Below are positions 15,555 to 60,088 of a DNA stretch of 60,088 bases, piece by piece. Under the pieces are notes generated by a model, which saw nothing but the letters and a program-made list of their open reading frames with translations, was not told the DNA's origin and made no database searches. The position numbers were made by a program, and so were the translations under genes. Source of the stretch: Candidatus Woesearchaeota archaeon (lineage in GTDB: Archaea; Nanobdellota; Nanobdellia; Pacearchaeales; GW2011-AR1); contig CAYORV010000002.1 in assembly GCA_964406515.1 (NCBI GenBank), forward strand, positions 1-60,088. Direction: 5' to 3'. How positions within the stretch are numbered: position 1 is the first letter of the stretch; each line of letters begins with the position of its first letter.

Positions 15555-16106
15555 ATGGCAATGAAAAAAAGAGGTGCGATGGAAATGTCTGTAGGAACAA
15601 TAGTTACAATAGTTCTTCTCATGGCGGTTTTAGTTCTAGGAATTTTTTTGGTTCAGAGGATTTTTAAGAGCGCCACAGGAGCAATTGATTTAACAGATGA
15701 TCAATTAAAAAATGAAATAAACAAATTATTTGGAGAGGATAATGAGTTGGTTATTTATCCTGGTTCTAGGATGGTTGAGATAAAACAAGAAGAAAATGAT
15801 GGAGTTGGTGTTGGAATAAAAAATTTATTGCAAGGTGTTTCAGGAACAAAAACATTTTCTTATAATGTCGTGGTTGCTGATGCTTCTGATTGTGCAGAAT
15901 CTGTAGAGGAAATTGAAGAATGGTTTACTGTTGGAAGAAGCGAAAGTGATATTCCTATTGCTGTGGGAGAATCGGCAATTCAAAAAGTTTTATTTAGAAT
16001 TCCTTCTGGTACTTCATTATGTACTGCAAGATTTAGAATTAATGTAGATGCTGAAGGTGAAGCATATGCTACTGATTTTTTTGATATAACTATAGAAGCT
16101 AAATAA
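15555..16106 (+). CDS. class III (prepilin-like) signal-peptide protein, putative archaeal pilin-like protein
   Basis: The ATG at 15555 follows the upstream stop via a TAAAATG junction. N-terminus MAMKKRGA/MEMSVGTIVTIVLLMAVLVLGIF has a basic-G/A motif followed by a hydrophobic helix. Confidence 0.55.
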   Translation: MAMKKRGAMEMSVGTIVTIVLLMAVLVLGIFLVQRIFKSATGAIDLTDDQLKNEINKLFGEDNELVIYPGSRMVEIKQEENDGVGVGIKNLLQGVSGTKTFSYNVVVADASDCAESVEEIEEWFTVGRSESDIPIAVGESAIQKVLFRIPSGTSLCTARFRINVDAEGEAYATDFFDITIEAK

Positions 16107-43292: not shown

Positions 43293-43366
43293 ATAATATT
43301 AAATTAAACTTCATTTAAATATTTTAGTATAATAAAACTTAAATTAGGGTTTGTATTTAATTGTGT

Positions 43367-44551: not shown

Positions 44552-45796
44552 TTATTTTTTCTTGCCTTTTGCAATTTTCAAAAGATTAACTGGTTTTTTT
44601 GCGCCCTTATATTTTTTCTTGAAAAACCAGATTAGAAAACCAATTGCAACTATTAAAATTAAAATCCCAATTATTTTTCCGGTTGAACTAGGTTCTTCTT
44701 TTTCCTGACAAGTTCCTACACAGCAGATATTATCTTTTGCACGAATTATTTCTTCACTACTGCACACTTCATCTCTAGAACAAATTGGATATCCTCTTTC
44801 TGCACAAGTCTGAGTTGTATATTCAGGTTGGGGCACTTCTGAAGGCGTATAATTTGTTAAAAATTTTACAGAAATTTGTGAATAAATTATTTGAGTTCCT
44901 TGTTTTGCTTTTATATGCCCTTCAACTTCAAACTCTTCTTCAGATGTGAAAGTCAATTCTATTGGAAGATTTGAATTAGGATCAAGTTTGTTTATATTTT
45001 CTTCTGACACTGTTACATAATTTTTTAATGAATTGGACAATGAGAGAGTGATATCTTTTATTGCTTCATCTCCTGTGTTATAAAGATAAATTGTTCTCCT
45101 TGTTTCTGAATCGGTTGGAACAGAAACAATTACTTTTTGTGGTTCAAATTTAAAGATTTCTTGTTCTTGAATTTCTATTGCTGGAATATCAGCAGGAATA
45201 TTGTAAATTAAATCAGCTGTGCTTAACTCAATTATTTTGAATTCTGATTCTTGTAATTCAAAAAGGAAATCTATTTCTTGTTTTTGACCTGATTTTAGAA
45301 TTATTGAATCTTTGTAAGTTTCTCCAGAAGCATTTGCATTTTCTTTTGTTTTTATTTCAATTGTTATTTCTCTATCTTGTAAATTTTGGACCTCTATTGA
45401 AAATTCATTATCATTTGCAAAACCAGGATTTACTGAAAAGTCTGCTGTTTTATTGTTTATTGTAAAATCTCTTTTTATATCTTCTTCACTTATTTCACTT
45501 CCTTTCATGTATTTTATATTTTCTAAAGCAATAGAATAATTATTTGATTCTTTTCCTGAAAGTAAAGCATAAATGTAATATTCATCATTGATTTTTCTTA
45601 TATCATATTCGAGGGGGATTCTTACATGTGTTCTGTAAAAAAATACATTTTCTTTTTGGAGGGGCTGGAGGAAATTGCCAGCAACTTTTGCAATCAAAGT
45701 TTCTCCTTGACTGAATTCTTCTTTTACATCAAATTCTACTGCAGAAATTATTGGGAAGATTAAAAGAAATAAAAGTAAGAATGCAAATGTTTTCAT
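44552..45796 (-). CDS. surface protein: signal peptide, beta-rich ectodomain, Cys module, C-terminal TM anchor
   Basis: N-terminal signal MKTFAFLLLFLLIFPIISA. Cys module CAERGYPICSRDEVCSSEEIIRAKDNICCVGTC. TM helix plus a K-rich tail. Confidence 0.65.
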   Translation of the reverse strand: MKTFAFLLLFLLIFPIISAVEFDVKEEFSQGETLIAKVAGNFLQPLQKENVFFYRTHVRIPLEYDIRKINDEYYIYALLSGKESNNYSIALENIKYMKGSEISEEDIKRDFTINNKTADFSVNPGFANDNEFSIEVQNLQDREITIEIKTKENANASGETYKDSIILKSGQKQEIDFLFELQESEFKIIELSTADLIYNIPADIPAIEIQEQEIFKFEPQKVIVSVPTDSETRRTIYLYNTGDEAIKDITLSLSNSLKNYVTVSEENINKLDPNSNLPIELTFTSEEEFEVEGHIKAKQGTQIIYSQISVKFLTNYTPSEVPQPEYTTQTCAERGYPICSRDEVCSSEEIIRAKDNICCVGTCQEKEEPSSTGKIIGILILIVAIGFLIWFFKKKYKGAKKPVNLLKIAKGKKK

Positions 45797-47557: not shown

Positions 47558-48841
47558 TTAAGTGTTATTTTTAAAAGTTGTCTTGTTTGATTTCTTCTTT
47601 GGTTTATTATTCTGAAAACTCTTTCTAACAACATAATTAACAGGATTTTTTATTAATTTACAAAGATTGTCTGGCTCGCAAACCCCAATTCCTTTATAAA
47701 ATTCTTGACAATTCGGAGGCATGATTGATTTTTTTCTAAAACTCCAGGAAAATTGTGATTTAATATAACCTTGCTTGAGAGGAGGTTTGTTTTTTTTATT
47801 CCATTCTTCAATTTGTTTTTCAATTTCATCTTTGTCCATACCAACAGAACGGAACAAATTGAGCAAAACAAATAGGGCTCTTTTTTTTCCATCTATAATT
47901 CCTTGTAGAATTTTTTTTACACAAGGAGGAAAGTTTTGTTCAGAAAGATTTGAAATTTGAATTGGTTTGAATTCTCTTTTGTTATCTTCTTGTTTTTCTG
48001 GATTATCTTCTTTATACCAATCAAGTGCTTGCATCAAGAGTTCGCTAGCTTCATTTTCTTGAGAATCTGGCATAAAATTCTTAACTTTGACCTTAAATGG
48101 ATCTGCATCTCTTGGATGAAAATCTGCAACATTTTCTGGCACAAGAACAACACTTGCTAAGGCTGTTTTTTCATGTAAAGAATATGGCATCCGAAATAAA
48201 TGTCTTGGAGAAACTAAAACTAAATCTGGCATAACTTCTTTTGGAGCTTCAAAATCTTTAACATATTTATTTGGTTTTGACAAATCACTGACCCTCTCTA
48301 TTAATTTTTCCTCAATTGTATGCATTATATATTTTGTTATTATTCTTGGCCATTCTGGAAACATGTCTGAAGTTTTCACATTATTGATTTCTTTAGGAAA
48401 TGCTTTCCACGGAATAATTAAATGAAAACCCTTACTTCCAGAAAATTTAACTCCTATGTTTTTTATTCCATGAAACTTTAACATTTCTATTATTATTTCT
48501 GCCATAATTTTGCTATAATCTAAATATTTGCTATCAATATCTAAAAGTAAATCCCATCCCACCCTTAATTCATCAAGTTGTTTCTCATTCATATCTGTTG
48601 AAAGTTCTAAAGGGTCTCTCCAAAGTTCCTCTGAACCATGAAGAGATGTGGCTCCTTTTTTTACTAATTCAAACATGTCTCCGGAATATTGAAATGTATC
48701 TGGGCGTTTTCCAAAACCATCAAAATAACGTGGAGAAATTTCTCTATTTTCTGAAAATTCAAATATTGCTTTTTGTATTTCTGGCTTGGAATAATATAAT
48801 TGGGTTATGTTTCTTATTCTTTGTTCGTTGACATTTGGCAT
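47558..48841 (-). CDS. DNA primase, fused PriS (catalytic AEP) and PriL C-terminal-like domain
   Basis: AEP motifs LLLDID and SGSKGFHLIIPW. The C-terminal part has the PriL-CTD pattern FPPCVKKIL..., PPNCQEFY..GVCEPD..C and IKNPVNY. ATG 48841 (MPNVNEQ...) is preferred over the track start at 48880. Confidence 0.8.
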   Translation of the reverse strand: MPNVNEQRIRNITQLYYSKPEIQKAIFEFSENREISPRYFDGFGKRPDTFQYSGDMFELVKKGATSLHGSEELWRDPLELSTDMNEKQLDELRVGWDLLLDIDSKYLDYSKIMAEIIIEMLKFHGIKNIGVKFSGSKGFHLIIPWKAFPKEINNVKTSDMFPEWPRIITKYIMHTIEEKLIERVSDLSKPNKYVKDFEAPKEVMPDLVLVSPRHLFRMPYSLHEKTALASVVLVPENVADFHPRDADPFKVKVKNFMPDSQENEASELLMQALDWYKEDNPEKQEDNKREFKPIQISNLSEQNFPPCVKKILQGIIDGKKRALFVLLNLFRSVGMDKDEIEKQIEEWNKKNKPPLKQGYIKSQFSWSFRKKSIMPPNCQEFYKGIGVCEPDNLCKLIKNPVNYVVRKSFQNNKPKKKSNKTTFKNNT

Positions 48842-48925
48842 AAGGAAAAAAACCGTCAAAAGTTTAAATAAATACCTCATCTAAACTATAACAATACTTA
48901 AAAAATAAATCCTACTTTAAATTAG

Positions 48926-50103: not shown

Positions 50104-50155
50104 CATTCGTTAAAATTTTCTTAAAGTTTATAAATAAGAATATCGTAAAACAGAT

Positions 50156-50917
50156 ATGGAAAAAAAGGGGCAAGTAACTATTTTTATTATCATTGCCATA
50201 ATAATTGTTGCTGCAGGAGTTTTAGTTTATTCATTTTATCCGCAAATTAAATCTAGTTTGGGTGGAGGCATAAAAAATCCGCAAGCATTTATCCAAGAAT
50301 GTATTGAAGATGAGCTTGAAGAAACAGTAGAATTAGTTTCTTTGCAAGGCGGGGATTTTAATCCAAAATTTTTCAGCACCTTTGATGGTATAAAAATAAA
50401 AAATTTATGTTACACTGCACAATATTGTGCGCTATGCTCTGTTCAAGAACCACAATTAAAACCATATATTGAAAGAGAAATTAAAGAGAATATTAAAGAT
50501 ACAGCTGATGCTTGTTTTAATTCTTTGAAAAAGAGTTATGAAAAAAAAGGATATAATGCTGTTTTGAAACCAGGAACAATAGATATTGAACTTTTACCAA
50601 AGAGGATTGTTTCTGTTTTTAATTATTCATTGACATTAACAAAAGGGGGCGACAGTGAAAGATATGATTCCTTCTCAGCAGTCTTGAACAATAATCTTTA
50701 TGAACTTATTGCAATTGCCAATAGCATACTCGAATGGGAAAGAAATTACGGGAAGACTGATGTGACAATATATATGGATTTATATCCTAATTTAAAGGTC
50801 GGACAAAAACTTTTAAGTGATGGAACAAAAATTTATATTATAACAGATAGGAATATTGGAAATAAATTTCAATTTGCTTCAAGGAGTCTTGTACTTTCAC
50901 CAAGTGGATATTGTTAA
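50156..50917 (+). CDS. class III signal-peptide (prepilin-like) protein 1
   Basis: N-terminus MEKKGQ/VTIFIIIAIIIVAAGVLVY has the archaeal prepilin KKGQ motif followed by a hydrophobic helix. Confidence 0.6.
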   Translation: MEKKGQVTIFIIIAIIIVAAGVLVYSFYPQIKSSLGGGIKNPQAFIQECIEDELEETVELVSLQGGDFNPKFFSTFDGIKIKNLCYTAQYCALCSVQEPQLKPYIEREIKENIKDTADACFNSLKKSYEKKGYNAVLKPGTIDIELLPKRIVSVFNYSLTLTKGGDSERYDSFSAVLNNNLYELIAIANSILEWERNYGKTDVTIYMDLYPNLKVGQKLLSDGTKIYIITDRNIGNKFQFASRSLVLSPSGYC

Positions 50918-50918
50918 A

Positions 50919-52652
50919 ATGAAAAGAATAAAAATTATCTTTGGTTTGTTTTTAATGATTTTCTTAGTTGGCTTTGTCAGTGCTGTTTGTTGCGAGAGAA
51001 CAGTAGATGAGGGCGTTTGCGTGGATGTTGGAGACGAGCAATATTGTGATGATACATATAGGATAGATGACACAGCATGTGAATCCACTCAATATTGTTC
51101 AACAGGAACTTGTGTAAATAATGCAGAGGGGATATGTATGACTTCTTCATCATCAGCATGTGATCCTAATTTAGGGGGATATTGGTATGCTGATATTGCA
51201 GATAACATTGCAGAATGTAAACCTGGTTGTTGCTTTATTGGAGAAGGCACGTCTTTTATTCCAAAAACAACATGTAATAAAAGGTCTGCAGACATAGGAA
51301 TTTCTCCAGATTTCAGGCAAGATATGGCTGAAGAACAGTGTTTATTGAGTGCAGGACCAACCACAAAAGGAGCATGTGTTTTTGACACAGATGACGGGAA
51401 AAAATGTACAATTGAAAAGAACGAAGATTGTGAGGAGGGGGTAGGCAAGTCTTTTCACGCAGGACTTTTATGTAGTGCTCCGAAATTAGGAACAACTTGT
51501 ACAATGACGGAGAGAACAAAATGTGCTGAAGGCAGGCATGAAGTTGTTTTTGAAGACAACTGTGGTAATGAAGCGAATGTTTATGATGAAAATAAAGTTG
51601 ACAATATTGATTACTGGACTTATATGAAAGATTTTACGTCGAGCGAGATTTGTGGATATGGAGAAGCAAATACAAATTCAGCAGACTGTGGAAATTGTAA
51701 TTATCTTGCTGGAAGCACTTGCGGTTCTACGAGAGGAACAGGAGTAACTCCAGACTCTGGAAATTATGTTTGTCGAGATTTGAGCTGTACTTATAAGGGA
51801 GAAAAAATAGCACACAGAAGTGCTTGGTGTTCTCAACCCTTATCTGATTTTGAAGTTGCAAAGCCAGGAGATTTGTCCTATAGACTCTATTGTTATAATG
51901 GGGAAGTTGATTGGAAATTATGTGATAATCAAAGAAATGAATTGTGTAAAGAAGAGGTTCCCGGGCAAGCTAATTGTGTTCCAAATAGATGGCAAACCTG
52001 TATATTCCAAAATAGTTCAAAAGATTGTTTGAACACAGACCAAAGAGATTGTAAGATCTTGGAAGAAGTAAGCAGAAAGAATGCAGAGGGAGAAGATATA
52101 TTATTCTTGGATTATACATACACCTATGATGATAATGGAACTATAACAAGTGAGTCTAGGGAATTTATAAAAGCAGTTTGTGTTCCTCGTTATACTCCTG
52201 GATTTGATTTCTTGAATCCTGATGATCCCATACTAGGGGTTTCTCCCCAAATAACTCCTACAGATGTTTGTAGTGGTGCCAGTGTAAGTTCTGTTGCAGG
52301 ATATCGCAAGGGAGTATTAAGTAATTGGGAGGCTAAAGACGGCAAATGTTTTGGAGAATGTGTGAAAGATTGTGAAGGTGCTCTTTTAGTGCCTGAATGT
52401 CAGCAAATTTGTTTTAATAAATGTCCTGCTTCTGAGTCTTTTATGGATAAATCTGGTTCTGGATTATTAGCAGGTATTGTAGACTTAAACAATGATTGGG
52501 CAACAAATCTAGAAGGGTTTTGTGTTTCTCTTGGGGATTGTGGAGTAAAGGCAAACTATATTCAAAAAAATAGTTATTATTCGTGGAAAGAACTTTTTAT
52601 AGGAGATAATATTAGTAAAACAAGCATACCTAATGCAGATAGTTATCAATAA
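50919..52652 (+). CDS. large secreted cysteine-dense protein
   Basis: Start at ATG 50919 after a TAAAATG junction. Sec-type signal MKRIKIIFGLFLMIFLVGFVSA. About 45 Cys by hand count. Confidence 0.65.
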   Translation: MKRIKIIFGLFLMIFLVGFVSAVCCERTVDEGVCVDVGDEQYCDDTYRIDDTACESTQYCSTGTCVNNAEGICMTSSSSACDPNLGGYWYADIADNIAECKPGCCFIGEGTSFIPKTTCNKRSADIGISPDFRQDMAEEQCLLSAGPTTKGACVFDTDDGKKCTIEKNEDCEEGVGKSFHAGLLCSAPKLGTTCTMTERTKCAEGRHEVVFEDNCGNEANVYDENKVDNIDYWTYMKDFTSSEICGYGEANTNSADCGNCNYLAGSTCGSTRGTGVTPDSGNYVCRDLSCTYKGEKIAHRSAWCSQPLSDFEVAKPGDLSYRLYCYNGEVDWKLCDNQRNELCKEEVPGQANCVPNRWQTCIFQNSSKDCLNTDQRDCKILEEVSRKNAEGEDILFLDYTYTYDDNGTITSESREFIKAVCVPRYTPGFDFLNPDDPILGVSPQITPTDVCSGASVSSVAGYRKGVLSNWEAKDGKCFGECVKDCEGALLVPECQQICFNKCPASESFMDKSGSGLLAGIVDLNNDWATNLEGFCVSLGDCGVKANYIQKNSYYSWKELFIGDNISKTSIPNADSYQ

Positions 52653-52653
52653 A

Positions 52654-54681
52654 ATGGGTGAGAAAAAAACAACAAAGAACCTCCTGGCGCTTGTGCAGAT
52701 TTCTATTTTGCTAATTGGTATTCTCGCTTTTACAAACATTATTTCTGCACAGCCATCAAGTGCACCTCTATCTACAAGTGTTATGAAAAAAGTTGTGATT
52801 AAATCCAATGAATCTTATCAAGAATCAAACAATAATATTGGGCCAACTGGTCAAGCTACATGGGTTCCTGTTCCTGTAGCATTACAAATGGGTGAAGCAG
52901 TTGGGAATTTTTTGCAAGGACTTATTGGAAAAATTAGTGTAAGTTCTTCAATTATTAGTAGTGGGCTTTTTTGGACTGCTGTTGTTTGGGCAGGTACTTT
53001 TGCAATGATATGGGTTTTTGGTGGACAAGAAGTAGATGAAGCCCTTTTTTGGGCAAACGCATTTGGAGCTTCTCTTGGTCTTGGATTTACTACTGGAAGT
53101 CTTTCAGGAGGATTAGCAGCAGGATTAGGAGCAACAGGAACATTAGTCCCTGGTATAGGTTGGACTATTGGAATAATAACAGCATTATATAGTTTATGGC
53201 GTATGACATTAAGAGTAGACGATAGGGCAGTTGTATTTGATTGCAAAACCTGGCAACCCCAAACAGGCGGAAATGATTGTAGAAAATGTAATGATGGTGA
53301 ATTCCCCTGTACAGCCTATAAATGTAGTAGTCTAGGGCAGAAATGTGAATTAGAAAATGAAGGGGATAATGCAAGATGTATATATAAAGACCCAACAGAT
53401 AACACTCCCCCTACGATAATCCAAAGACAAGATTCACTATCCTCTACAGATTATTCTTATGAATCAATATCTACAGAAGGGGTTGAAATAAAATATAAGG
53501 GAGGTTGTTTGCCTTCTTTTGAATCATTTACTTTTGGAATTGAATTGGATAAAGAAGGCAGATGTATGATGGAAAATCATTTGGCAGAATTCTCAGAAAT
53601 GGTACTTAGTTTTGGAAGTGATGACTTGGAAATAAATCACACACAGATGCTATCTTTTCCTGTGGGAGGAAATTATGAATACTATGTAAGTTGTGAAAGT
53701 GCTAATGGATATGCTAATGTCGGTGCTTTTTTATTCAAATTCTGTATCGAGCAAGAAGATGATTCAACTCAACCAAATATACAAGGATTTAATTTATTGG
53801 ATAGTACACCAATAAGTTATTTCGATGAAGAGGAAGAACATGAAACAGATGTAATAATTTATGTTAATGAACCATTATTTAACGTCGAAAATGGATGTAA
53901 ATGGAGTCACTCTGATAAAGAATATGATGATATGAAAGGGAGTATGGCTTCTTGTTCAGATGACCCTGCTAAATTTACTACATTTAATATGCAGATAAGC
54001 TATTCCTGTTCTGGAACATTGACAGGATTAGAAAATGGAAAAGAAAACAAGTTTTATTTCAGATGTAAGGATGCAACTGGGAATGTGAATACGTTTTCTA
54101 AGGACTTAACATTAATAGGCTCTCGTCCTTTGATAATAGATTCTGTTGGTCCCGAGGGAATAATAAAGGGAGCTTCTCAACTTGTTGAAGTTACTTTAGA
54201 AGCAGAAACTTCTGAAGGATATAAAGATGGAATAGCAGATTGTTATTATAGTGATACTGGAAATTATGATGATTACACAAGATTTACAGATACGCGCTCT
54301 AACAAACACTCTACTAAAATTGACATTCCAGAAGAAACTTACAAATATTATATTCAATGTATTGACATGGCAGGAAATGTCGATATTGAAACAATTTCAT
54401 TTGAAGTTGAAACAGATTTTGAGGCCCCATTGGTGATAAGAGCATATTATGAAGGGGGGGATTTGAATTTAATTACAAATGAATTGGCGGAGTGTGTTTA
54501 TTCTACTGATTCTTGTAGTTATAATTTTATAGATGGGGTTAGCATAATAAGTAGTGATGATATTCTTCACTCTGTTACATGGAATACAAACAATAATTTA
54601 TATGTGAAGTGTCGGGATGAATATGGAAATCAACCGAATAATGGATGTAGCATAAGTGTACGACCATTTGAATTTTTCTGA
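52654..54681 (+). CDS. large surface/membrane protein with Gly-rich hydrophobic block and beta-rich ectodomain
   Basis: Start at ATG 52654 after a TAAAATG junction. Signal or anchor LLALVQISILLIGILAFTNIISA. A roughly 100-aa G/A/L/T-rich hydrophobic block is followed by Cys-containing domains. Confidence 0.65.
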   Translation: MGEKKTTKNLLALVQISILLIGILAFTNIISAQPSSAPLSTSVMKKVVIKSNESYQESNNNIGPTGQATWVPVPVALQMGEAVGNFLQGLIGKISVSSSIISSGLFWTAVVWAGTFAMIWVFGGQEVDEALFWANAFGASLGLGFTTGSLSGGLAAGLGATGTLVPGIGWTIGIITALYSLWRMTLRVDDRAVVFDCKTWQPQTGGNDCRKCNDGEFPCTAYKCSSLGQKCELENEGDNARCIYKDPTDNTPPTIIQRQDSLSSTDYSYESISTEGVEIKYKGGCLPSFESFTFGIELDKEGRCMMENHLAEFSEMVLSFGSDDLEINHTQMLSFPVGGNYEYYVSCESANGYANVGAFLFKFCIEQEDDSTQPNIQGFNLLDSTPISYFDEEEEHETDVIIYVNEPLFNVENGCKWSHSDKEYDDMKGSMASCSDDPAKFTTFNMQISYSCSGTLTGLENGKENKFYFRCKDATGNVNTFSKDLTLIGSRPLIIDSVGPEGIIKGASQLVEVTLEAETSEGYKDGIADCYYSDTGNYDDYTRFTDTRSNKHSTKIDIPEETYKYYIQCIDMAGNVDIETISFEVETDFEAPLVIRAYYEGGDLNLITNELAECVYSTDSCSYNFIDGVSIISSDDILHSVTWNTNNNLYVKCRDEYGNQPNNGCSISVRPFEFF

Positions 54682-54722
54682 TTGTTAAAAAAGTTTATAA
54701 GTTATGGGTGTTATTTTTAGAT

Positions 54723-55184
54723 ATGAAAAAAAGGGGTACTTGCGCTTTGACATTGCGGATTAGAAAAAATATTTGTCCAACGTCAAAACGCGCGCAAATG
54801 AAGTTATCTTTTGGAATGATTTTTTCTATTTTTCTTATAATTATATTTATTGCTTTTGCGGTTTATGCGATAATCAAATTAATTGATATGCAACACACAA
54901 TTCAGATTGAAACATTCAAAAATGATTTGCAAGGGGATCTTGATGCAATTTGGCAGAGTTCTGGAGAATATAGTCAAGAATTTGAATATTATTTGCCTAA
55001 TAAGATAGATTCTGTTTGTTTTGATGAAAATAATTATATGTATTTTGAAAGTGAAGAAATTCTTGTAGGGGAAACTATTGAACACATCAATGTTAATGCT
55101 TTTTGTGTAGATAATATTGACGGAAAAGTAAGTATGACTCTTGTTAAAGATTATGGAGAAATCTTGGTGACAATAACAGAATGA
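54723..55184 (+). CDS. class III signal-peptide (prepilin-like) protein 2, with basic N-terminal extension
   Basis: ...TSKRAQ/MKLSFGMIFSIFLIIIFIAFAVYAI. First ATG at 54723; the ORF track uses GTG at 54708. Confidence 0.5.
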   Translation: MKKRGTCALTLRIRKNICPTSKRAQMKLSFGMIFSIFLIIIFIAFAVYAIIKLIDMQHTIQIETFKNDLQGDLDAIWQSSGEYSQEFEYYLPNKIDSVCFDENNYMYFESEEILVGETIEHINVNAFCVDNIDGKVSMTLVKDYGEILVTITE

Positions 55185-56113
55185 AAAAAGGCGCGTTACA
55201 GATATCTTTTGGTTGGCTTTTTGCGATTATTGTAGGAGCGTTTATAATTTTCCTTGCGATTTATGGAGTTACAAAATTTATGGGCACAGAACAAGAAACT
55301 ATCGACGCTAAAACAAGTAATGAAATTGGAATCCTTCTTAATCCATTAGAAACTAGTTTTGAATCTGCAAAAACTACTTCTTTTTCACTTCCAGCAGAAT
55401 CGCGAATTAGTAATGGTTGTAATGATAGGGGAAATTTTGGTAAACAATTAATTTCTGTTTCGCAAAAAAGTTTTAACAAATGGACAGAAACAAATCTTGA
55501 AGCGAGTTTTCTAAACAAATATATTTTCTCGCGCGAAACTGTTGAAGGAAAGAATTTTTATATTTTTTCAAAGCCATTTGATTTTCCTTTTAAGGTTTCT
55601 GATTTAATTTATATGACCTCTTCAAAAGAAACATATTGTTTTGTTGATGCTCCAGAAGATATTGAAGATGAAATCAAAACAATTAATCAAGCAAATCTTT
55701 TAACAGAAGATTGTTCAGAGAATAGTATTAATGTTTGTTTTTCTGGAACTTGCGATATTAATGTTAATTATAATCAAAATTATGTGAAAAAAGAGAAGGA
55801 GCTATTGTATTTTGTTTCTGATTCTTTGATGTATGCTGCGATTTTTGCAGACCCAGATGTTTATGAATGCCAGTTGAAAAGACTTATGCAAAGAGTAAAA
55901 GAACTTTCATCAATATATCTTGATAAAGCAATCTCTGTTAATGAAAGAGGTTGTAACTTGGATATAAATACTGATTTAATTGAATTTAACAGGCTTGCGG
56001 GAAATTTTGTAGATTCAAAAGATAGTGATTCGGGAAATATTTTGGGATTCAGCAGTATTGTTGAAGATCTTGAAAATAAAAACGATGCGGGAGGTGCGTG
56101 CGGATTATGGTAA
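55181..56113 (+). CDS. class III signal-peptide (prepilin-like) protein 3
   Basis: MKKGA/LQISFGWLFAIIVGAFIIFLAIYG. ATGA overlap with the upstream gene. Confidence 0.6.
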   Translation: MKKGALQISFGWLFAIIVGAFIIFLAIYGVTKFMGTEQETIDAKTSNEIGILLNPLETSFESAKTTSFSLPAESRISNGCNDRGNFGKQLISVSQKSFNKWTETNLEASFLNKYIFSRETVEGKNFYIFSKPFDFPFKVSDLIYMTSSKETYCFVDAPEDIEDEIKTINQANLLTEDCSENSINVCFSGTCDINVNYNQNYVKKEKELLYFVSDSLMYAAIFADPDVYECQLKRLMQRVKELSSIYLDKAISVNERGCNLDINTDLIEFNRLAGNFVDSKDSDSGNILGFSSIVEDLENKNDAGGACGLW

Positions 56114-56118
56114 TAAAA

Positions 56119-56694
56119 ATGAAACCCACCGACGGGTTTTCTATCCTACGTCCCAATAGAAAATTGAAAATAATTCTGAACAAAGGAGGGCAAATGAAAA
56201 TTCAGCAGACAGCATTTATGCTCATAGCAGTTACATTGTTTTTCATACTTGCTGGATTGTTTGTGTTTGTATTGAGATTTTCTAATATAAAAGAAGCTTC
56301 AAGAATAATTGAAGAAGAAAATGCTATGCTTCTTGTAATTAAATTGGCTAATTCTCCTGAATTTGCGTGTGGAAATTCATTTGGGAATAGTCGGACAAAT
56401 TGTGTTGATGGAGATAAGATTATGATGTTAAAAGAACATATAACAGATTATTCTGGATTTTGGGGTGTTGCTGAAATAGAAATAAGAAAAGTTTATCCTG
56501 ATTCAGAAAGTACTTTGTGCACTTTGGGAAATTATCCTGATTGTGGGATTATTGAAATTTACTCAAAAAATGTGAATAAATTACCTGCTTCATCAAATTT
56601 TGTTTCTTTATGTTGGAAACAAGATTCAGATATGGGAGTTTATGCTAAATGCGAGCTTGCTAGATTAATGGTGAGTGCAGAGGATAAAACATGA
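56119..56694 (+). CDS. class III signal-peptide (prepilin-like) protein 4, with basic N-terminal extension
   Basis: ...LNKGGQ/MKIQQTAFMLIAVTLFFILAGLFVFVL. ATG 56119 is the first start after the upstream stop; the ORF track uses GTG at 56098. Confidence 0.5.
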   Translation: MKPTDGFSILRPNRKLKIILNKGGQMKIQQTAFMLIAVTLFFILAGLFVFVLRFSNIKEASRIIEEENAMLLVIKLANSPEFACGNSFGNSRTNCVDGDKIMMLKEHITDYSGFWGVAEIEIRKVYPDSESTLCTLGNYPDCGIIEIYSKNVNKLPASSNFVSLCWKQDSDMGVYAKCELARLMVSAEDKT

Positions 56695-57173
56695 AATCAA
56701 AACGCGCGCAAGAAGAGATGGTTGGATTTGCATTAATTATTATAATAGTATCTGTGATTTTGCTTGTTTTCCTTGGTTTTTTCTTACGAAATTCAAATAA
56801 TGTAGAAATTAAAAGTTACGAAGTCGAGAGTTTTATTCAATCGGTTTTGCAAACTACAAGTGATTGCGAGGATGCTGGAGGATTTTTATCTGTTCAAAAG
56901 TTAATTTTCAGTTGTGAGTCTCTGGAAGAATGTCTGAACGGCAAAAGTGCTTGTGAGATTTTGAATTCCACATTAGAAAAGATTAGTGAAGAAAGTTGGA
57001 ATGTGGGGGAAGATGCGCCCATAAAAAGTTATGAATTAAAAATTCTTTCTGAAAATACAGAAATTTTCCTGTTTAAAGAAGGCAATATAACTAAGAATTA
57101 TAGGGGAGCTTCGCAACCATTTACTAGAAGAGGCAAAGATTATGAGATGTCTTTTAATCTATATTATGACTAA
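56691..57173 (+). CDS. class III signal-peptide (prepilin-like) protein 5
   Basis: MKSKRAQ/EEMVGFALIIIIVSVILLVFLGFF. ATGA overlap with the upstream gene. Confidence 0.6.
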   Translation: MKSKRAQEEMVGFALIIIIVSVILLVFLGFFLRNSNNVEIKSYEVESFIQSVLQTTSDCEDAGGFLSVQKLIFSCESLEECLNGKSACEILNSTLEKISEESWNVGEDAPIKSYELKILSENTEIFLFKEGNITKNYRGASQPFTRRGKDYEMSFNLYYD

Positions 57174-57511
57174 ATCTTCACATTAATTGAAATTGTATCT
57201 ACTAAAATCACTGGCCTATGTCTTACTCTGTTTTTGGTTTTTTCTTCTTTTAATTCTATAAAACCAAATCTTTCCAAAAGTTTAACATCATCATTTACTG
57301 CCTTAAATCCCCTACCTAATTTCTTAGCTAATTCATAGATTGATTGGGGTTTTTGGTTCTTAATTACATGTAAAATTCGTGCTTTTTCGTTGCTCAAAAG
57401 CTGTCTTAAGGCCAAAATACTGGAAAAATCATAGTCTTCTTTAGCAGAATCTTTTTTAAAAATAGAAAATGCTCCCTTCTCTCTCTTTAGTGTAATTTCT
57501 CTTAATACCAT
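57170..57511 (-). CDS. winged-helix (ArsR/MarR-like) transcriptional regulator
   Basis: ARILHVIKNQKPQSIYELAKKLGRGFKAVNDDVKLLERFGFIEL is a wHTH pattern. Convergent with the pilin-like operon and divergent from the S-layer gene. Confidence 0.65.
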   Translation of the reverse strand: MVLREITLKREKGAFSIFKKDSAKEDYDFSSILALRQLLSNEKARILHVIKNQKPQSIYELAKKLGRGFKAVNDDVKLLERFGFIELKEEKTKNRVRHRPVILVDTISINVKI

Positions 57512-57905: not shown

Positions 57906-60088
57906 ATGAAAAATACTTTTAAGAAAATATCTGCCGTAATTGGTAGTGTATTAATGGTTGGAATGACTATGGGTGTTGCTGCTGCTGCAAACTATCCCGC
58001 ACCTTTCGTGGTTGGGGGAAGCGCAGACGCTGCAATTGTTTATGGTACTGGAGTTGGTGTAAACCCTTCAGATTTAGTCCAAGCAGGATATGTACAAACA
58101 AACTTAGCATCTGTTACAAGCTCTTCAGGAGGAACTCCTACAGGAGATAATATCCAAATTGCTAAATCCACTGATAAGTTTAATCTTATGAACAATCTAA
58201 GTGCATTTTATTCTAAGATTGATGAAGGAGAATTGACTACAGTCTTAGCAAAAGGCGTGTATAGTAATAATGATCATGACGATTTTAAGTATGAACAAGA
58301 TATTGTTTTCCAATCAGGTAATCAATTGACACACTTTTTAGATAGTAAATTTAATGGTGATAAACCTGTATTTGGTTTTGAAATGTCTAGTGGAACAAAG
58401 ATATTAAACTATACCTTGAAATTTACTCCGGATGATGCAGAAGGAACTGATGTTTCATGGAGTGGAATAGTAGATAGTGAATTACCTTTATTCAGTACTC
58501 CGTATTATGTGTTAGCAATGACTAATACAACTGCTACAAATCATAAGATAACTCTTCTTAATTCTGCAGCATCTGCTACATTGAATGACGGCGAATCTAT
58601 AACCTTAACAACTGATACTGGCTCATATACTGTTTCTGTCTCTTATCTTGATACTAATAGTGTTAAGTTAACTATTAATTCAGAGATAACTGATAGTTTG
58701 GCAGCAGGTCAAACTCAGAAATTAAGTGATGGATCTTATGTGGGAATTAAAAGTTTGGATTCACAAGGATATGCTGGTGGAGTAGCTTATGTTGAATTTA
58801 GCATTGGTAATGGAAAACTTGTTTTAGAAAATACTAAAGAAGTAGAGATAAACAATGAGAAAATTAGTAAAACAAACTACCCTATTACTGGTTCTGATGA
58901 AACTATTAGTTATAAGATAACTTCTTATATTACTACATCTGGAACAAATATAGATAGTATTGTTTTGGACTGGGAAACAGATGATGAAACTTGGTTTGCT
59001 CCTGGAAATGATTTGACGTTACCGGGATTTGAAACAGTTAAATTAAGCATGAATGAATTCGTTACAGGCGTAGGAGAAGTAACAAAGCTAGAAGGAGATA
59101 GTAGCAAATTAGAACTTGTCACAACTATAACTGATGGACCAATTACCTTGCCTATCTTTTACTTAAATTCTAGTACAACTGGAATTGATGGAATTGGTAA
59201 AGATGCTACACATATAATGGCAACAGGTAATGGAAGTTCAGGTGGAGTAGGAGCAGGTCTTGGAATTATGCTAGAACTTAATGAAACTCTAAATAGTTAT
59301 TTTGTTGTTACATGGATTAGTGGAGATGAAGCAGAAACCTATGCATATGAGTTAGAGAGTGTTGATGAAGATGATAATAATAAAACAGTATTAACAAATC
59401 TTGTTTCAGGCGGAAGTGACATAACTCTTGATGAAGATGGAGAATCTGACACTGATGGAAATGTTAAATTTACATTGGATTTTGCACATGAAAAATATTC
59501 AACTGATGAATATGTTAGATTAAACATTAGCGCTGCAAGTAGTGGAACAGTTTATACAGACAGAATTGTAACTGCTGATGGACTTATGATATCATTGCCA
59601 GTAGAACACTCTAGTAAGACTGGTGCTGCTATTTATAGCACAACAATGGCTACTATAGTCGCATCAATTGGAAATGGATTCCTAAATACATCAACAATAG
59701 TTGGTGATGATAATGATCCAACTACATGGACTATGAATGTTACTGAAGAAGATAAAGATGACAATATTGCTGGTGGAGGACATTCTGTCGAGGTTGTAAT
59801 TTCAACTTCAAGTACAGATGGTCTTGAAGTGTCTTCAATTGCAAATGGTCTTACAGCTACAACAATGCTTGAGACTGAAGATGGTTCTAAAGTTTATGAA
59901 GGATATGTGCGAAGTGATATGAGTACAAAATTCGTTCATAGTAAGCCTTCGAGTGGTCTTAATGATTTGGAGATAACATACTTCCCTGGTGAAACTTATG
60001 CAGAAATATTCCTTACTGAAGCAGGTTCTGTATTGACTGGTGGTTCTTCATTAGGAGAAATCCTTGTGAAAGATACTGAGGTAAGTTC
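57906..60088 (+). CDS. S-layer protein (Methanococcales-type S_layer_MJ-like), 3'-truncated by window end
   Basis: Not in the ORF track because it has no stop. I read the frame from ATG 57906 to the window end without finding a stop codon. ggaggt lies 12 nt upstream. Signal MKNTFKKISAVIGSVLMVGMTMGVAAA is followed by ANYPAPFVVGGSADAAIVYG, the S-layer N-terminal signature. Later motifs are EEDKDDNI and ILVKDTEVS. Confidence 0.85.
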   Translation, partial: MKNTFKKISAVIGSVLMVGMTMGVAAAANYPAPFVVGGSADAAIVYGTGVGVNPSDLVQAGYVQTNLASVTSSSGGTPTGDNIQIAKSTDKFNLMNNLSAFYSKIDEGELTTVLAKGVYSNNDHDDFKYEQDIVFQSGNQLTHFLDSKFNGDKPVFGFEMSSGTKILNYTLKFTPDDAEGTDVSWSGIVDSELPLFSTPYYVLAMTNTTATNHKITLLNSAASATLNDGESITLTTDTGSYTVSVSYLDTNSVKLTINSEITDSLAAGQTQKLSDGSYVGIKSLDSQGYAGGVAYVEFSIGNGKLVLENTKEVEINNEKISKTNYPITGSDETISYKITSYITTSGTNIDSIVLDWETDDETWFAPGNDLTLPGFETVKLSMNEFVTGVGEVTKLEGDSSKLELVTTITDGPITLPIFYLNSSTTGIDGIGKDATHIMATGNGSSGGVGAGLGIMLELNETLNSYFVVTWISGDEAETYAYELESVDEDDNNKTVLTNLVSGGSDITLDEDGESDTDGNVKFTLDFAHEKYSTDEYVRLNISAASSGTVYTDRIVTADGLMISLPVEHSSKTGAAIYSTTMATIVASIGNGFLNTSTIVGDDNDPTTWTMNVTEEDKDDNIAGGGHSVEVVISTSSTDGLEVSSIANGLTATTMLETEDGSKVYEGYVRSDMSTKFVHSKPSSGLNDLEITYFPGETYAEIFLTEAGSVLTGGSSLGEILVKDTEVS

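What the first reader, a model, noticed from the sequence alone, without database searches (positions are those of the whole stretch)
50156..57173. Seven-gene operon of five prepilin-like proteins plus two large surface proteins, with no assembly ATPase, platform or peptidase in the window
Five ORFs begin with, or contain shortly after a basic extension, a K/R-G/A-Q type motif followed directly by a 20-25 aa hydrophobic helix. The motifs are KKGQ/VTIF..., KRAQ/MKLSFG..., KKGA/LQISFG..., KGGQ/MKIQQTAF... and KRAQ/EEMVGF.... This is the class III (type IV prepilin-like) signal of archaeal pilins. A sixth stand-alone example lies at 15555. The genes are joined by TAAAATG or ATGA junctions to a 577-aa secreted protein with about 45 Cys. 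They are also joined to a 675-aa protein carrying a roughly 100-aa Gly-rich hydrophobic block. Two of the pilin-like ORFs have about 25-30-aa basic N-terminal extensions before the motif, which is atypical. The DNA encoding SKRAQ (tcaaaacgcgcgcaa) is identical in two of the genes. The set resembles a major/minor pilin set with tip adhesins. Its composition does not match characterised archaeal pili (Aap, Ups, Epd, archaellum) as far as I can recognise. In a putative episymbiont it is a candidate host-attachment or DNA-uptake filament.
Basis: partly seen in the sequence, partly recalled or inferred. Interest (0 to 1): 0.7.

Follow-up and report, generated by a model that had tools for sequence, protein, structure and literature searches.

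The report
Conserved pilin-like surface gene cluster, DPANN archaea
These seven genes are a surface-protein cluster kept in the same order in several hundred species of tiny Woese-/Pacearchaeota archaea: five proteins carry a conserved type IV pilin-style signal and two are large cysteine-rich or Ig-repeat proteins, probably forming a filament-like surface structure whose assembly motor is encoded elsewhere.

Summary
Seven + strand genes (50156-57173) exist with the stated junctions, 45 Cys in g2 and a Gly-rich membrane block in g3. No TFF ATPase, platform or peptidase is in the window.

The cluster is not a local oddity. Relatives of g3 occur in 229 species genomes of Woese-/Pacearchaeota. 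The order PCNA, g1-g7, wHTH regulator, S-layer-like gene is kept in about 60 fetched loci.

In orthologues of g1, g4, g6 and g7 the motif [KR][GAS]|Q plus a hydrophobic helix is nearly invariant, while leader length varies from 4 to more than 30 aa. g5 has KKG|x. Pilins next to a T2SSE ATPase and two T2SSF platforms in the same lineage use the same motif. No protein matches any known pilin family, and the g5 head has no PDB match. g3 has five helices, a Cys knot and about four Ig domains.

TATA boxes indicate two leaderless units, g1-g3 and g4-g7.

The "atypical" g4 leader is a 57-nt palindromic element inserted in frame between the -1 and +1 codons. This repeat recurs at prepilin cleavage sites across the lineage.

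Verdict: a new variant of a type IV pilin-like system. A filament, processing, and machinery in the same genome are not shown.

The parts
50127..50134 (+). TATA-like box (TTTATAAA) about 22 nt upstream of the g1 ATG. Predicted promoter of a leaderless g1-g2-g3 unit.
   Evidence: Sequence read. A TATA-like box lies 26-34 nt upstream of an in-frame ATG in 54 of 73 g1 orthologues, against 1-5 in g5/g6/g7.
50156..50917 (+). g1: 253-aa pilin-like protein. Predicted class III signal MEKKG|QVTIFIIIAIIIV, with the +1 Gln codon at 50171. Six Cys.
   Evidence: ORF. [KR][GA]Q-(V/I)T(I/L)F(I/V)II is conserved in 83 orthologous ORFs with leaders of 5-47 aa. No Pfam or NCBIfam hit.
50919..52652 (+). g2: 577-aa secreted protein with an ordinary Sec-type signal (MKRIKIIFGLFLMIFLVGFVSA|V) and 45 Cys.
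   Evidence: Orthologues found in 64 loci. In many relatives a g2-like Cys-rich region is fused into a g3-like protein of about 1250 aa.
52654..54681 (+). g3: 675-aa polytopic membrane protein. It has an N-terminal helix, four Gly-rich helices, a conserved Cys knot (WQxxTGGxDCxxCN...FPCTEYQCKSLGQxCEL) and about four Ig-like domains.
   Evidence: Alignment A1. AlphaFold model with pLDDT 78.7, five helices, then beta-sandwich domains. Foldseek hits only generic Ig/FN3 arrays, adhesins and S-layer proteins. 36 protein homologues and 229 species genomes.
54694..54701 (+). TATA-like box (TTTATAAG) about 22 nt upstream of ATG 54723. Predicted promoter of a leaderless g4-g7 unit.
   Evidence: Sequence read. 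Conserved in 36 of 46 g4 orthologues.
54723..55184 (+). g4: 153-aa precursor of a small pilin-like protein. The mature part starts at Q (codon 54795): QMKLSFGMIFSIFLIIIF. SFGMI-S is invariant. Two Cys are conserved among orthologues; the window precursor has four.
   Evidence: alignment A3. Gene callers start it at 54798, but orthologues keep [KR][GA]Q upstream, and the TATA box fits ATG 54723.
54738..54794 (+). 57-nt palindromic repeat element inserted in frame between the codon for the original -1 Gly (MKKRG) and the +1 Gln. It encodes TCALTLRIRKNICPTSKRA and regenerates a KRA|Q site.
   Evidence: Inverted repeat 54742-54755 / 54778-54791. Homologous elements lie at the same junction of g1, g4, g6 or g7 in other genomes. 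55 copies were found in 50 metagenome contigs, read in two frames, sometimes in tandem, with a few intergenic.
55181..56113 (+). g5: 310-aa pilin-like protein, MKKG|ALQISFGWLFAIIVG. Eight Cys.
   Evidence: 1171 homologues, the top 120 at least 55% identical. 1626 representative clusters. AlphaFold model with pLDDT 84 and pTM 0.77: helix 10-59, beta-sheet 67-155, C-terminal helical bundle. No PDB fold or sequence match.
56107..56694 (+). g6: pilin-like protein of 195 aa from ATG 56107. Leader MVIK...NKGG|QMKIQQTAFMLIAVTLFF, with the +1 Gln codon at 56191. The leader carries an extra insert of about 60 nt (about 56119-56178) with small hairpins.
   Evidence: [KR][GAS]Q-(L/M)KIQQ is conserved in 63 orthologues. 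ATTATGGTAA, a start overlapping the g5 stop, is conserved. Close relatives L012 and L014 lack the insert.
56691..57173 (+). g7: 160-aa pilin-like protein, MKSKRA|QEEMVGFALIIIIV, with the +1 Gln codon at 56709.
   Evidence: [KRS][GAS]QEE(M/I)(V/I)GF is conserved in 63 orthologues. It carries the 3' arm sequence TCAAAACGCGCGCA without the 5' arm.
57170..57511 (-). Winged-helix regulator of the HVO_A0114 family. It converges on g7 and diverges from the S-layer-like gene.
   Evidence: PF25212, E = 2.7e-19. Present at this position in 59 loci, with mean pairwise identity 68%.
57906..60088 (+). 5' part (727 aa, runs off the window) of the predicted S-layer-like protein. Sec signal, 0 Cys, 10 N-glycosylation sequons.
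   Evidence: Orthologues of 780-910 aa in 55 loci carry weak or faint PF05124 S_layer_C hits. The window fragment itself has no Pfam hit.
15555..16106 (+). Stand-alone pilin-like ORF, MAMKKRG|AMEMSVGTIVTIVLL. It shows N-terminal similarity to g4.
   Evidence: cross-hits with g4. Not analysed further.

Best explanation
The locus encodes the subunits of a lineage-specific surface structure related to type IV filaments (TFF) in Woese-/Pacearchaeota (GTDB Nanoarchaeota).

Five proteins (g1, g4, g5, g6, g7) are made as precursors with a class III signal. The inferred steps are:
1. They enter the membrane through Sec.
2. A prepilin peptidase cuts them after [KR][GAS], leaving Gln (Ala in g5) at +1 of a roughly 20-residue hydrophobic helix.
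3. These helices let them pack into a short heteromeric filament or pseudopilus-like stalk.
4. Assembly would be driven in trans by the conserved TFF ATPase and two platform proteins that this lineage encodes at another locus.

g2 is a Sec-secreted protein with 45 Cys. g3 has five membrane helices, a Cys knot and about four Ig domains. They are inferred to be the non-pilin partners, acting as a distal adhesin or as a membrane/S-layer collar.

The genes are transcribed as two leaderless units (g1-g3 and g4-g7). They sit next to a wHTH regulator and the S-layer-like gene, so the structure is probably built together with, or through, the S-layer.

Shown: gene content, conservation, signal motif, synteny, promoters, folds of g3 and g5, and the existence of the TFF machinery in the lineage. 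Inferred: cleavage, assembly into a filament, use of that machinery, and the roles of g2 and g3.
For: 1. The motif [KR][GAS]|Q plus a hydrophobic helix is nearly invariant in 50-83 orthologous ORFs for each of g1, g4, g6 and g7 (g5: KKG|x). The leader varies from 4 to more than 30 aa. This is the pattern expected of a cleaved leader, not of a plain signal anchor.
2. Pilins encoded directly next to a T2SSE ATPase (PF00437, E = 1e-30) and two T2SSF platforms in the same lineage use KRG|Q and K[RS][GS]|Q. One carries the same palindromic leader insert ending in KSKRS|Q.
3. That ATPase is 72-87% identical in the best 120 of more than 7800 hits. Of the roughly 15 that carry a name, nearly all are labelled Pacearchaeota, Nanoarchaeota or Nanoarchaeia. 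Its locus architecture is conserved.
4. The g5 model has a 50-residue N-terminal helix followed by an antiparallel sheet.
5. There are five pilin-like genes plus large partner proteins, in single copy and fixed order across about 60 loci. Mean pairwise identity is 43-52%, higher than the S-layer-like protein (35%). This suggests a fixed multi-subunit complex.
6. Complementary charges lie near the mature N-termini: K at +3 in g4 and g6, EE at +2/+3 in g7. These would allow inter-subunit pairing; this is inference.
7. Pilin loci apart from the ATPase, and ATPases serving several pilin sets, are documented for archaea (PMC4858521). Woesearchaeota strongly express archaellins, so a prepilin peptidase is expected in the lineage (PMC11606122).
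Against: - None of the seven proteins hits Pfam, NCBIfam or PDB pilin families.
- Profile HMMs of g1 and g4-g7 do not hit the pilins of the lineage's own TFF locus at E <= 1.
- The g5 head domain has no Foldseek match, so a pilin fold is not confirmed.
- No TFF ATPase lies within about 10 kb of the cluster in any of the roughly 80 distinct related loci fetched by homology, including those on contigs of 100-650 kb.
- The TFF locus already has about seven pilin genes of its own.
- I could not show that the ATPase, platform or peptidase occurs in the same genome as the cluster.
- Only g1 satisfies the strict FlaFind-type pattern; this is my own reading of the sequences. The others have K, E or Q within +2 to +5.
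- The proteins are Cys-rich and almost free of N-glycosylation sequons, unlike the characterised archaeal pilins as I recall them.
Confidence: 0.55

Rival explanations
1. An S-layer-associated envelope complex rather than a filament. The five proteins, cleaved or not, stay anchored in the membrane by their N-terminal helices. Together with g2 and g3 they form a fixed complex that anchors, patterns or perforates the S-layer, or forms a host-contact or channel device. This would be comparable in logic to ArlF/ArlG, SlaB-type stalks or the Sulfolobus bindosome. No TFF ATPase would be needed.
For: - Adjacency to the S-layer-like gene and the wHTH regulator is invariant in 55-59 loci.
- The cluster is never next to a TFF ATPase.
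- Conservation is uniform and fairly high, with single-copy genes, unlike fast-evolving major pilins.
- g3 is a polytopic membrane protein with Ig domains resembling S-layer and adhesin arrays.
- Class III signals also occur on non-filament proteins such as substrate-binding proteins (bioRxiv 10.64898/2026.04.22.720090).
Against: - Five different proteins all keep a prepilin-type cleavage motif. That is the hallmark of helix-packing TFF subunits.
- Adjacency to the S-layer gene is only positional. The regulator is oriented towards the S-layer-like gene, not the cluster.
- No experimental data exist for either reading.
Confidence: 0.27
2. Ordinary bitopic membrane proteins. In this reading the K/R-G/A-Q motif is just a positive-inside N-terminus of uncleaved type II signal anchors, and the cluster is a set of unrelated extracellular proteins.
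For: - Other window proteins have similar K/R-G/A plus TM N-termini: FKBP 5793-6155, PD40 protein 19231-20196 and TerC-like 12332-12922.
- There is no homology to known pilins.
Against: - The small residue at -1 and Gln at +1 are nearly invariant, while leader length and sequence drift freely. Leaders even tolerate 57-60-nt insertions and tandem copies. That is hard to explain unless the leader is removed.
- Bona fide TFF-linked pilins of the lineage use the same motif.
Confidence: 0.08
3. A variant of the arCOG01314-associated putative archaeal secretion or membrane-remodelling system (Makarova et al. 2015). That system combines membrane proteins with Ig-like ectodomains and S-layer-like proteins.
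For: - General resemblance: membrane proteins with 2-5 TM helices and an extracellular Ig-like domain, next to S-layer-like proteins (PMC5898192).
- A DPANN-specific "secreted protein next to S-layer-like proteins" family (cls.004306, NEQ255) is listed as enigmatic (PMC6393860).
Against: None of the signature components is present in the window cluster or among the genes listed for the related loci: DUF4350/arCOG01314, MoxR AAA+ ATPase, vWA protein or DUF1616/pfam07760.
Confidence: 0.05

Closest known systems
Epd-type ("system 1" / clade 1) type IV pili of Methanococcus maripaludis, with pilins processed by the dedicated peptidase EppA
   Same: - Several small pilin-like proteins carry a K/R-G|Q type class III signal. 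The +1 Gln preference of EppA is from my own knowledge of Szabo et al. 2007 and Ng et al. 2011, not tested here.
- Some pilin genes lie at a locus separate from the ATPase.
- The lineage's TFF locus has two platform genes, as system 1 does.
   Different: - No sequence similarity to Epd pilins or to any Pfam or NCBIfam pilin model.
- No EppA or ATPase gene is linked.
- The partners are a 45-Cys secreted protein and a five-helix Ig-repeat membrane protein.
- Adjacency to the S-layer-like gene is fixed.
Minor-pilin or pseudopilin sets of bacterial T2SS and T4P (GspG-K; FimU-PilVWXE plus PilY1)
   Same: - Five pilin-like subunits of different sizes are encoded in tandem, with translational coupling.
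- One large subunit (g5, 310 aa) has an extra helical domain.
- Large non-pilin partners may act as adhesins.
This comparison rests on my own knowledge and is an analogy only.
   Different: - Archaeal class III signal rather than G|F(M)TLIE.
- No homology.
- No linked secretin or ATPase.
Class III-signal proteins that do not form classical pili (Sulfolobus bindosome substrate-binding proteins; ArlF/ArlG)
   Same: A prepilin-type N-terminus on proteins that may stay at the cell envelope and interact with the S-layer.
   Different: - No substrate-binding domain.
- No archaellum genes nearby.
- No homology detected.
arCOG01314-associated putative secretion system (Makarova, Galperin and Koonin 2015)
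   Same: Membrane proteins with extracellular Ig-like domains encoded next to S-layer-like proteins.
   Different: - It lacks DUF4350, MoxR ATPase, vWA and DUF1616 components.
- It has five prepilin-like proteins instead.
Rickettsia palindromic elements (RPEs) that insert in frame into protein-coding genes (comparison for the leader insert only; my own knowledge)
   Same: A short palindromic repeat family found inside ORFs with the reading frame preserved. The same DNA is read in different frames in different copies.
   Different: - About 57-60 nt rather than 100-150 nt.
- Archaeal.
- Targeted to one very specific place, the -1/+1 junction of class III signal peptides, where the encoded peptide is predicted to be cut off. 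It regenerates the cleavage motif.

Membership tests
Archaeal type IV pilin-like proteins (TFF subunits with a class III signal peptide) | N-terminal class III signal: short basic leader, K/R at -2 (or -3), small residue (G/A/S) at -1, followed directly by a hydrophobic helix of about 20 residues and no further TM segment. | tested here: met
   Present in g1, g4, g5, g6 and g7, and conserved in 40-83 orthologous ORFs per gene. Only g1 fits the strict FlaFind-like residue set at +1 to +4 (own reading).
Archaeal type IV pilin-like proteins (TFF subunits with a class III signal peptide) | Processing by a prepilin peptidase (PibD/FlaK/EppA). | not testable with these tools
   No peptidase gene was found in the window. 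A crude GxGD motif search of about 1.7 Mb of held related sequence also found none. Proteomics is needed.
Archaeal type IV pilin-like proteins (TFF subunits with a class III signal peptide) | Pilin fold: extended N-terminal alpha-helix packed against a beta-sheet head. | tested here: inconclusive
   Only g5 was modelled. It has helix 10-59 followed by an antiparallel sheet and an extra helical bundle. No Foldseek match to any PDB pilin; best E = 0.6.
Archaeal type IV pilin-like proteins (TFF subunits with a class III signal peptide) | Sequence membership in a described pilin or archaellin family (Pfam Pilin_N PF07790, Class_IIIsignal PF04021, NCBIfam pilin models, PDB pilins). | tested here: not met
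   No hit at E <= 1 apart from noise. No HMM hit to the pilins of the lineage's own TFF locus. Those bona fide TFF-linked pilins also mostly lack Pfam hits.
Archaeal type IV filament system (locus level) | Genomic linkage to a TFF ATPase (T2SSE) and a platform protein (T2SSF). | tested here: not met
   Absent from the window and from about +/-10 kb in the roughly 80 distinct related loci fetched by homology. Such machinery exists elsewhere in the lineage. Presence in the same genome is not shown.
Epd / system 1 pili | EppA-type signal with Gln at +1, and a dedicated 9-TM EppA peptidase in the genome. | tested here: inconclusive
   Gln at +1 is met for g1, g4, g6 and g7. The EppA gene could not be searched for in the source genome.
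arCOG01314-associated putative secretion system | Presence of a DUF4350 (pfam14258) membrane protein, a MoxR-type AAA+ ATPase, a vWA protein and a DUF1616 (pfam07760) protein. | tested here: not met
   None of these Pfam families is hit by g1-g7, and none is listed for the called genes of syntenic loci.
Archaeal S-layer protein (downstream gene 57906-) | Match to an S-layer family model. | tested here: inconclusive
   Orthologues have weak or faint PF05124 S_layer_C hits. The 727-aa window fragment has none.

The most novel reading that the evidence does not exclude
The cluster encodes a previously unrecognised surface organelle specific to Woese-/Pacearchaeota. Five pilin-like subunits would form a stalk or conduit that passes through the S-layer. 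The five-helix Ig protein g3 would sit at its membrane base and the 45-Cys protein g2 at its tip. This would be the host-contact or uptake device of these reduced-genome archaea. It might be assembled without a dedicated ATPase, or by borrowing the single TFF motor.

In addition, the palindromic repeats that home to the prepilin cleavage-site codons might be a regulatory or variation device for its expression rather than merely selfish DNA.
Probability: 0.15. Interest if true: 0.85.

Novelty: new variant of a known kind. Interest (0 to 1): 0.55.

Why it matters
Woese- and Pacearchaeota are abundant, uncultivated archaea with reduced genomes (my own knowledge). How they contact other cells or surfaces is unknown.

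This cluster is among the most strictly conserved blocks of unannotated genes at these loci. Relatives of g3 occur in 229 species genomes and g5 has about 1600 representative clusters. All seven products face the outside, and the cluster is locked next to the S-layer-like gene. If it builds a pilin-based surface structure, it is a prime candidate for attachment, host interaction or uptake in this clade.

It also defines five new pilin-like families that current pilin models miss.

The leader-targeted palindromic repeat is a separate curiosity. It is a repeat family that lives inside the part of a gene whose product is predicted to be thrown away. It gives independent genetic support that these leaders are dispensable, which fits cleavage.

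Tried and rejected
1. I first read the KGGQ of g6 as an in-frame translation of a Shine-Dalgarno sequence (aaaGGAGGgcaaATG), because gene callers start g6 at 56194 and g4 at 54798. I rejected this. Orthologues keep [KR][GAS]Q with Leu, not Met, after it, and they share an MV start overlapping the g5 stop.
2. An exact look-up of g3 with my chosen start found nothing. g1 worked.
3. Foldseek and PDB profile searches of g5, g4 and g3 gave no specific relative.
4. I tried to prove that the TFF ATPase and the cluster occur in the same genome. First I matched the "longest_contig" values of ATPase hits against contigs carrying the cluster. Then I matched WGS accession prefixes. No match was found, so co-occurrence remains unproven.
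5. A crude motif search for a prepilin peptidase (GxGD[VAILMF][KR] in a multi-TM ORF) and for T2SSE Walker A motifs in all held loci found nothing near the cluster.
6. The arCOG01314 "secretion system" was considered and rejected for lack of its signature genes.
7. I could not test whether the DPANN-specific family cls.004306 (NEQ255) of Makarova et al. 2019 corresponds to one of these genes. No sequence was available.
8. RNAalifold on 11 element copies shows a conserved 11-bp stem but few compensatory changes. That does not distinguish a functional RNA hairpin from a DNA inverted repeat.

Full report
**Context.** The window is an archaeal chromosome of about 32% G+C. It carries archaeal RNase P RNA, tRNA-Phe, PCNA, a fused PriS/PriL primase, form III RuBisCO, a glycolytic gene block and class I Lys- and Cys-tRNA synthetases. 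The same locus, with identical g1, occurs on contigs of several metagenome assemblies. Relatives are labelled Woesearchaeota, Pacearchaeota or Nanoarchaeota.

Seven + strand genes fill 50156-57173.
- The junctions are TAAAATG (g1/g2 and g2/g3), ATGA (g4/g5 and g6/g7) and ATGGTAA (g5/g6).
- g2 has 45 Cys in 577 aa. g3 has a Gly-rich hydrophobic block of about 100 aa.
- The 15-mer encoding SKRAQ occurs exactly twice in the window, at the g4 and g7 leaders. The chance expectation is 0.01.
- None of the seven proteins matches a Pfam or NCBIfam model.
- Every ORF of at least 110 aa that I scanned in the window lacks T2SSE, T2SSF and Peptidase_A24 domains. The absence of assembly genes from the window is therefore real.

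**The cluster is a deeply conserved unit.**
- g3 has 36 full-length homologues in the protein collection. It has relatives in 229 species-level genomes, of which 78 loci were fetched.
- I searched the window proteins with phmmer against ORFs of 89 loci. The recurrent order is [414-aa secreted protein -][582-aa Cys-rich protein -][primase -][PCNA +] g1 g2 g3 g4 g5 g6 g7 [wHTH of the HVO_A0114 family -][S-layer-like protein +].
- g1-g7, the regulator and the S-layer-like gene are present in about 55-73 loci. Most of the missing cases are contig ends.
- The precomputed annotations of two distant loci agree and show weak PF05124 (S_layer_C) hits on the downstream protein of 814-893 aa.
- Many genomes carry an additional upstream module: a second g1 plus a protein of about 1250 aa that combines g2-like and g3-like parts.
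- Mean pairwise identity of the seven proteins is 43-52%. The S-layer-like protein is at 35% and PCNA at 70%.
- g5 alone has 1171 homologues and 1626 representative clusters at E <= 0.001.

**The N-termini behave as class III signals.** In the orthologues the sequence at the start of the hydrophobic helix is almost invariant:
- g1: [KR][GA]Q-VTIFIII
- g4: [KR][GA]Q-(L/M)x(L/I)SFGMIFSI
- g6: [KR][GAS]Q-(L/M)KIQQ(M/T)AFML
- g7: [KRS][GAS]Q-EE(M/I)(V/I)GF
- g5: KKG-xLQISF(G/A)WLFAIIVG

The segment before this point varies freely in sequence and in length, from 4 to more than 30 residues. A constant small residue at -1, a constant +1 and a free leader are what is expected if the leader is removed at that point.

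I had first suspected that the KGGQ of g6 was only a translated Shine-Dalgarno sequence, because gene callers start g6 and g4 after the motif. The orthologues refute this. Most have Leu after the Gln, and they share an ATG that overlaps the g5 stop codon (ATTATGGTAA). That places the window start at 56107.

The motif alone is not specific. An FKBP, a PD40 propeller protein and a TerC-like protein in the window also begin with K/R-G/A plus a hydrophobic stretch. The argument rests on conservation, not on the pattern.

**Link to genuine TFF systems of the same lineage.** A metagenome contig found through the leader repeat (L135) carries a canonical TFF locus.
- It has a T2SSE ATPase (PF00437, E = 1e-30), two T2SSF platform proteins and about seven small pilin genes.
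- Most of these pilin genes also lack Pfam hits.
- The pilin next to the ATPase reads ...KATRALTLKTNNKFLPKSKRS|QVWVETVIYTLIAL. This is the same leader insert and the same KRS|Q junction as in the cluster.

This ATPase is 72-87% identical in the best 120 of more than 7800 hits. Of the roughly 15 that carry a name, nearly all are labelled Pacearchaeota, Nanoarchaeota or Nanoarchaeia. Four further loci show the same architecture: five small pilin genes, the ATPase, a 55-aa gene, two platform genes and two more pilin-like genes, followed in two of them by archease and RtcB.

Their pilins use KRG|QFYLIAA, K[RS][GS]|QVW(V/I)ET and KxG|VSPVIAT signals. The K/R-G/A/S|Q signal of the cluster is therefore the signal used by pilins that are genetically tied to a TFF motor in this clade.

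However, profile HMMs of g1 and g4-g7 do not hit those pilins at E <= 1. The cluster is never within about 10 kb of an ATPase. I could not show that ATPase and cluster share a genome.

The literature supports the general situation.
- Pilin genes away from the machinery, and ATPases that serve several pilin sets, are common in archaea (PMC4858521).
- System 1 and 4A loci with two platform genes occur in DPANN (bioRxiv 10.64898/2026.04.22.720090).
- Woesearchaeota highly express archaellins (PMC11606122).

**Structures.**
- g5 (alignment of 46 sequences) gives a confident model with pLDDT 84 and pTM 0.77. It has an N-terminal helix at residues 10-59, an antiparallel sheet at 67-155, a small alpha/beta part and a C-terminal helical bundle. 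The helix-plus-sheet beginning is pilin-like. Foldseek finds nothing in the PDB (best E = 0.6) and profile search of PDB sequences finds nothing.
- g3 (33 sequences, pLDDT 79) has an N-terminal helix, four further membrane helices, a Cys-rich knot carrying the invariant WQxxTGGxDCxxCN...FPCTEYQCKSLGQxCEL motif, and about four beta-sandwich domains. Its Foldseek matches are generic Ig/FN3 arrays, including adhesins and bacterial S-layer proteins.
- In more distant g3 homologues the N-terminus also reads [KR]G-[AS](I/M)A(I/L)SQI. This is class III-like. The window's clade lacks the Gly.
- g2 has an ordinary Sec signal.
- g1-g7 have many Cys and 0-3 N-glycosylation sequons each. The neighbouring S-layer-like protein fragment has no Cys and 10 sequons.

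**Transcription.** A TATA-like box lies 26-34 nt upstream of an in-frame ATG in 54 of 73 g1 and 36 of 46 g4 orthologues. The figures are only 3 of 40, 5 of 59 and 1 of 61 for g5, g6 and g7. In the window the boxes are at 50127-50134 and 54694-54701, both about 22 nt before gatATG(g)aaaaaaagggg.
- This indicates two leaderless units, g1-g3 and g4-g7, with overlapping or abutting genes inside each.
- It also fixes the g4 start at 54723, so the long g4 leader is translated.

**The "atypical" leaders are DNA insertions.** In g4, the 57 nt at 54738-54794 lie exactly between the codon of the original -1 Gly (MKKRG) and the +1 Gln. They form an inverted repeat.

Homologous elements have the consensus ACTCGCGCCTTGACTTYG - loop - CAAAGTCAAAACGCTCG. 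They sit at the same junction of g1, g4, g6 or g7 in other genomes. In 1.2 Mb of related loci the 3' arm motif occurs 12 times. All copies are on the coding strand, and all lie at these cleavage-site codons.

A metagenome scan found 55 copies on 50 contigs.
- At least 35 copies lie in frame directly before Gln plus a hydrophobic helix. These are in cluster genes and in other pilin-like genes.
- Some are in tandem arrays of two or three.
- A few are intergenic.
- The 5' arm is read in two frames (TRALT... or NSRLDF...). The third frame contains TGA. Conservation is therefore at the DNA level.

Each copy ends in KSKR[SA], so it regenerates a K-R-small|Q site. g7 of the window carries only the 3' arm, which explains the identical 15-mer. 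The g6 leader of the window has a different insert of about 60 nt with small hairpins, which close relatives lack.

Leaders of at least 20 aa fold more stably than short ones, with mean MFE -11.8 against -6.8 kcal/mol. Covariation is too sparse to claim an RNA function. From my own knowledge, the closest analogy is the Rickettsia palindromic elements that insert in frame into genes. The tolerance of these leaders to insertions and tandem copies is itself indirect evidence that the leader is discarded.

**Most likely mechanism (about 0.55).** g1 and g4-g7 are class III-signal pilin-like subunits. Each step below is inferred:
1. They are inserted through Sec.
2. They are trimmed by a prepilin peptidase to Gln at +1 (Ala in g5).
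3. They are assembled through their N-terminal helices into a short heteromeric filament or stalk.
4. The lineage's single conserved TFF motor acts in trans.
5. g2 and g3 serve as adhesin or collar partners at the S-layer.

The fixed stoichiometric look of the set (single copy, fixed order, even conservation) fits a minor-pilin or pseudopilus-like complex better than a fast-evolving major pilin. So do the complementary K(+3) and EE(+2/+3) residues.

**Rivals.**
- The main rival (about 0.27) is a non-filament, S-layer-associated envelope complex that uses the pilin-like helices only as anchors.
- Plain signal anchors (about 0.08) and the arCOG01314-type system (about 0.05; PMC5898192) are less likely.
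- A DPANN-specific family flagged as an enigmatic "secreted protein next to S-layer-like proteins" (cls.004306, NEQ255; PMC6393860) may correspond to one of these genes. I could not test this.

**Novelty and verdict.** The kind of system is known: class III-signal pilin-like proteins encoded apart from the TFF motor. These five families, the g2 and g3 partners, the fixed pairing with the S-layer locus and the leader-homing palindromic repeat are not described in the literature I could search. I rate it a new variant of a known kind, of moderate to good interest (0.55). The decisive missing facts are processing, filament formation and the presence of the machinery in the same genomes.

Noticed in passing
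window 54738-54794; also L012, L018, L023, L034, L037, L042, L063, L069, L080 and 50 metagenome contigs (L090-L139): A family of palindromic repeats of about 57-60 nt is inserted in frame exactly at the -1/+1 junction of class III signal peptides. It regenerates KSKR[SA]|Q. It is read in two frames, sometimes occurs in tandem, and is occasionally intergenic. It resembles a REP/MITE or Rickettsia-RPE-type element specialised for prepilin leaders.
   Followed up: yes
window about 56119-56178 (g6 leader); L015 13441-14055: A second, unrelated small insert with hairpins (AAACCCACCGACGGGTTT; TTTTCTAT/ATAGAAAA) lengthens the g6 leader relative to close relatives L012 and L014. L015 has yet another insert at the same place. 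Leaders seem to be insertion hot spots.
   Followed up: partly
L010 2007-6492, L017, L018, L021, L022, L028, L032, L034, L037 and others: Many relatives have an extra module upstream of the cluster. It consists of a second g1 paralogue plus a protein of about 1250 aa with 60-70 Cys that combines g2-like and g3-like regions. This suggests that g1, g2 and g3 work together. The window lacks this module.
   Followed up: partly
L010/L011 7297-7918 and 9377-10008: Two MNT/HEPN (NTP_transf_2 / HepT-like) toxin-antitoxin pairs are inserted between cluster genes in one lineage. A MazE/ParE pair lies after the S-layer-like gene.
   Followed up: no
window 44552-45796 (-) and 45798-47546 (-): Two further secreted proteins have a Sec signal, a C-terminal TM anchor and a basic tail. 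One has 30 Cys and a Pro-rich tail. They are syntenic with primase and PCNA upstream of the cluster in 15-17 loci. The conserved surface-protein island may therefore be larger than seven genes.
   Followed up: partly
alignment A1 (g3 homologues P0022-P0034): In distant g3 homologues the N-terminus reads [KR]G-[AS](I/M)A(I/L)SQI. This is a class III-like motif on a protein that goes on to four more membrane helices. The window's clade has KN-LLALVQIS instead.
   Followed up: partly
window 2311-3219 (+) and 961-1500 (-): A sigma-70-type factor (regions 1.2, 2, 3 and 4 all hit) lies on an archaeal chromosome. An adjacent ORF has a weak outer-membrane beta-barrel hit. This could be horizontal transfer from bacteria or an assembly chimera at the window edge.
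   Followed up: no
window 43361-43861 (+): A ComEA-like secreted helix-hairpin-helix (HHH_3) protein with a signal peptide and a C-terminal anchor lies about 6 kb upstream of the cluster. It is a possible extracellular DNA receptor. It is not conserved next to the cluster in L008.
   Followed up: no
window 15555-16106 (+): A stand-alone pilin-like ORF (MAMKKRG|AMEMSVGTIVTIV) has N-terminal similarity to g4 and no family hit.
   Followed up: partly
L135 1514-10992; L140, L141, L143, L145: The canonical TFF locus of this lineage is conserved as five small pilin genes, an ATPase, a 55-aa ORF, two platform genes and two pilin-like genes, followed by archease and RtcB in L140 and L141 (archease also in L135). 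Almost none of its pilins is recognised by Pfam.
   Followed up: partly
window 47558-48880 (-): A single 440-aa protein hits both the primase small-subunit and large-subunit Pfam families, so it is a fused PriS-PriL primase.
   Followed up: no
literature: PMC6393860, Table 1: [quoted passage not shown] S-layer-like proteins" and is present in 43 of 67 DPANN genomes. It may be one of the cluster genes. If so, the cluster extends beyond Woese-/Pacearchaeota.
   Followed up: no
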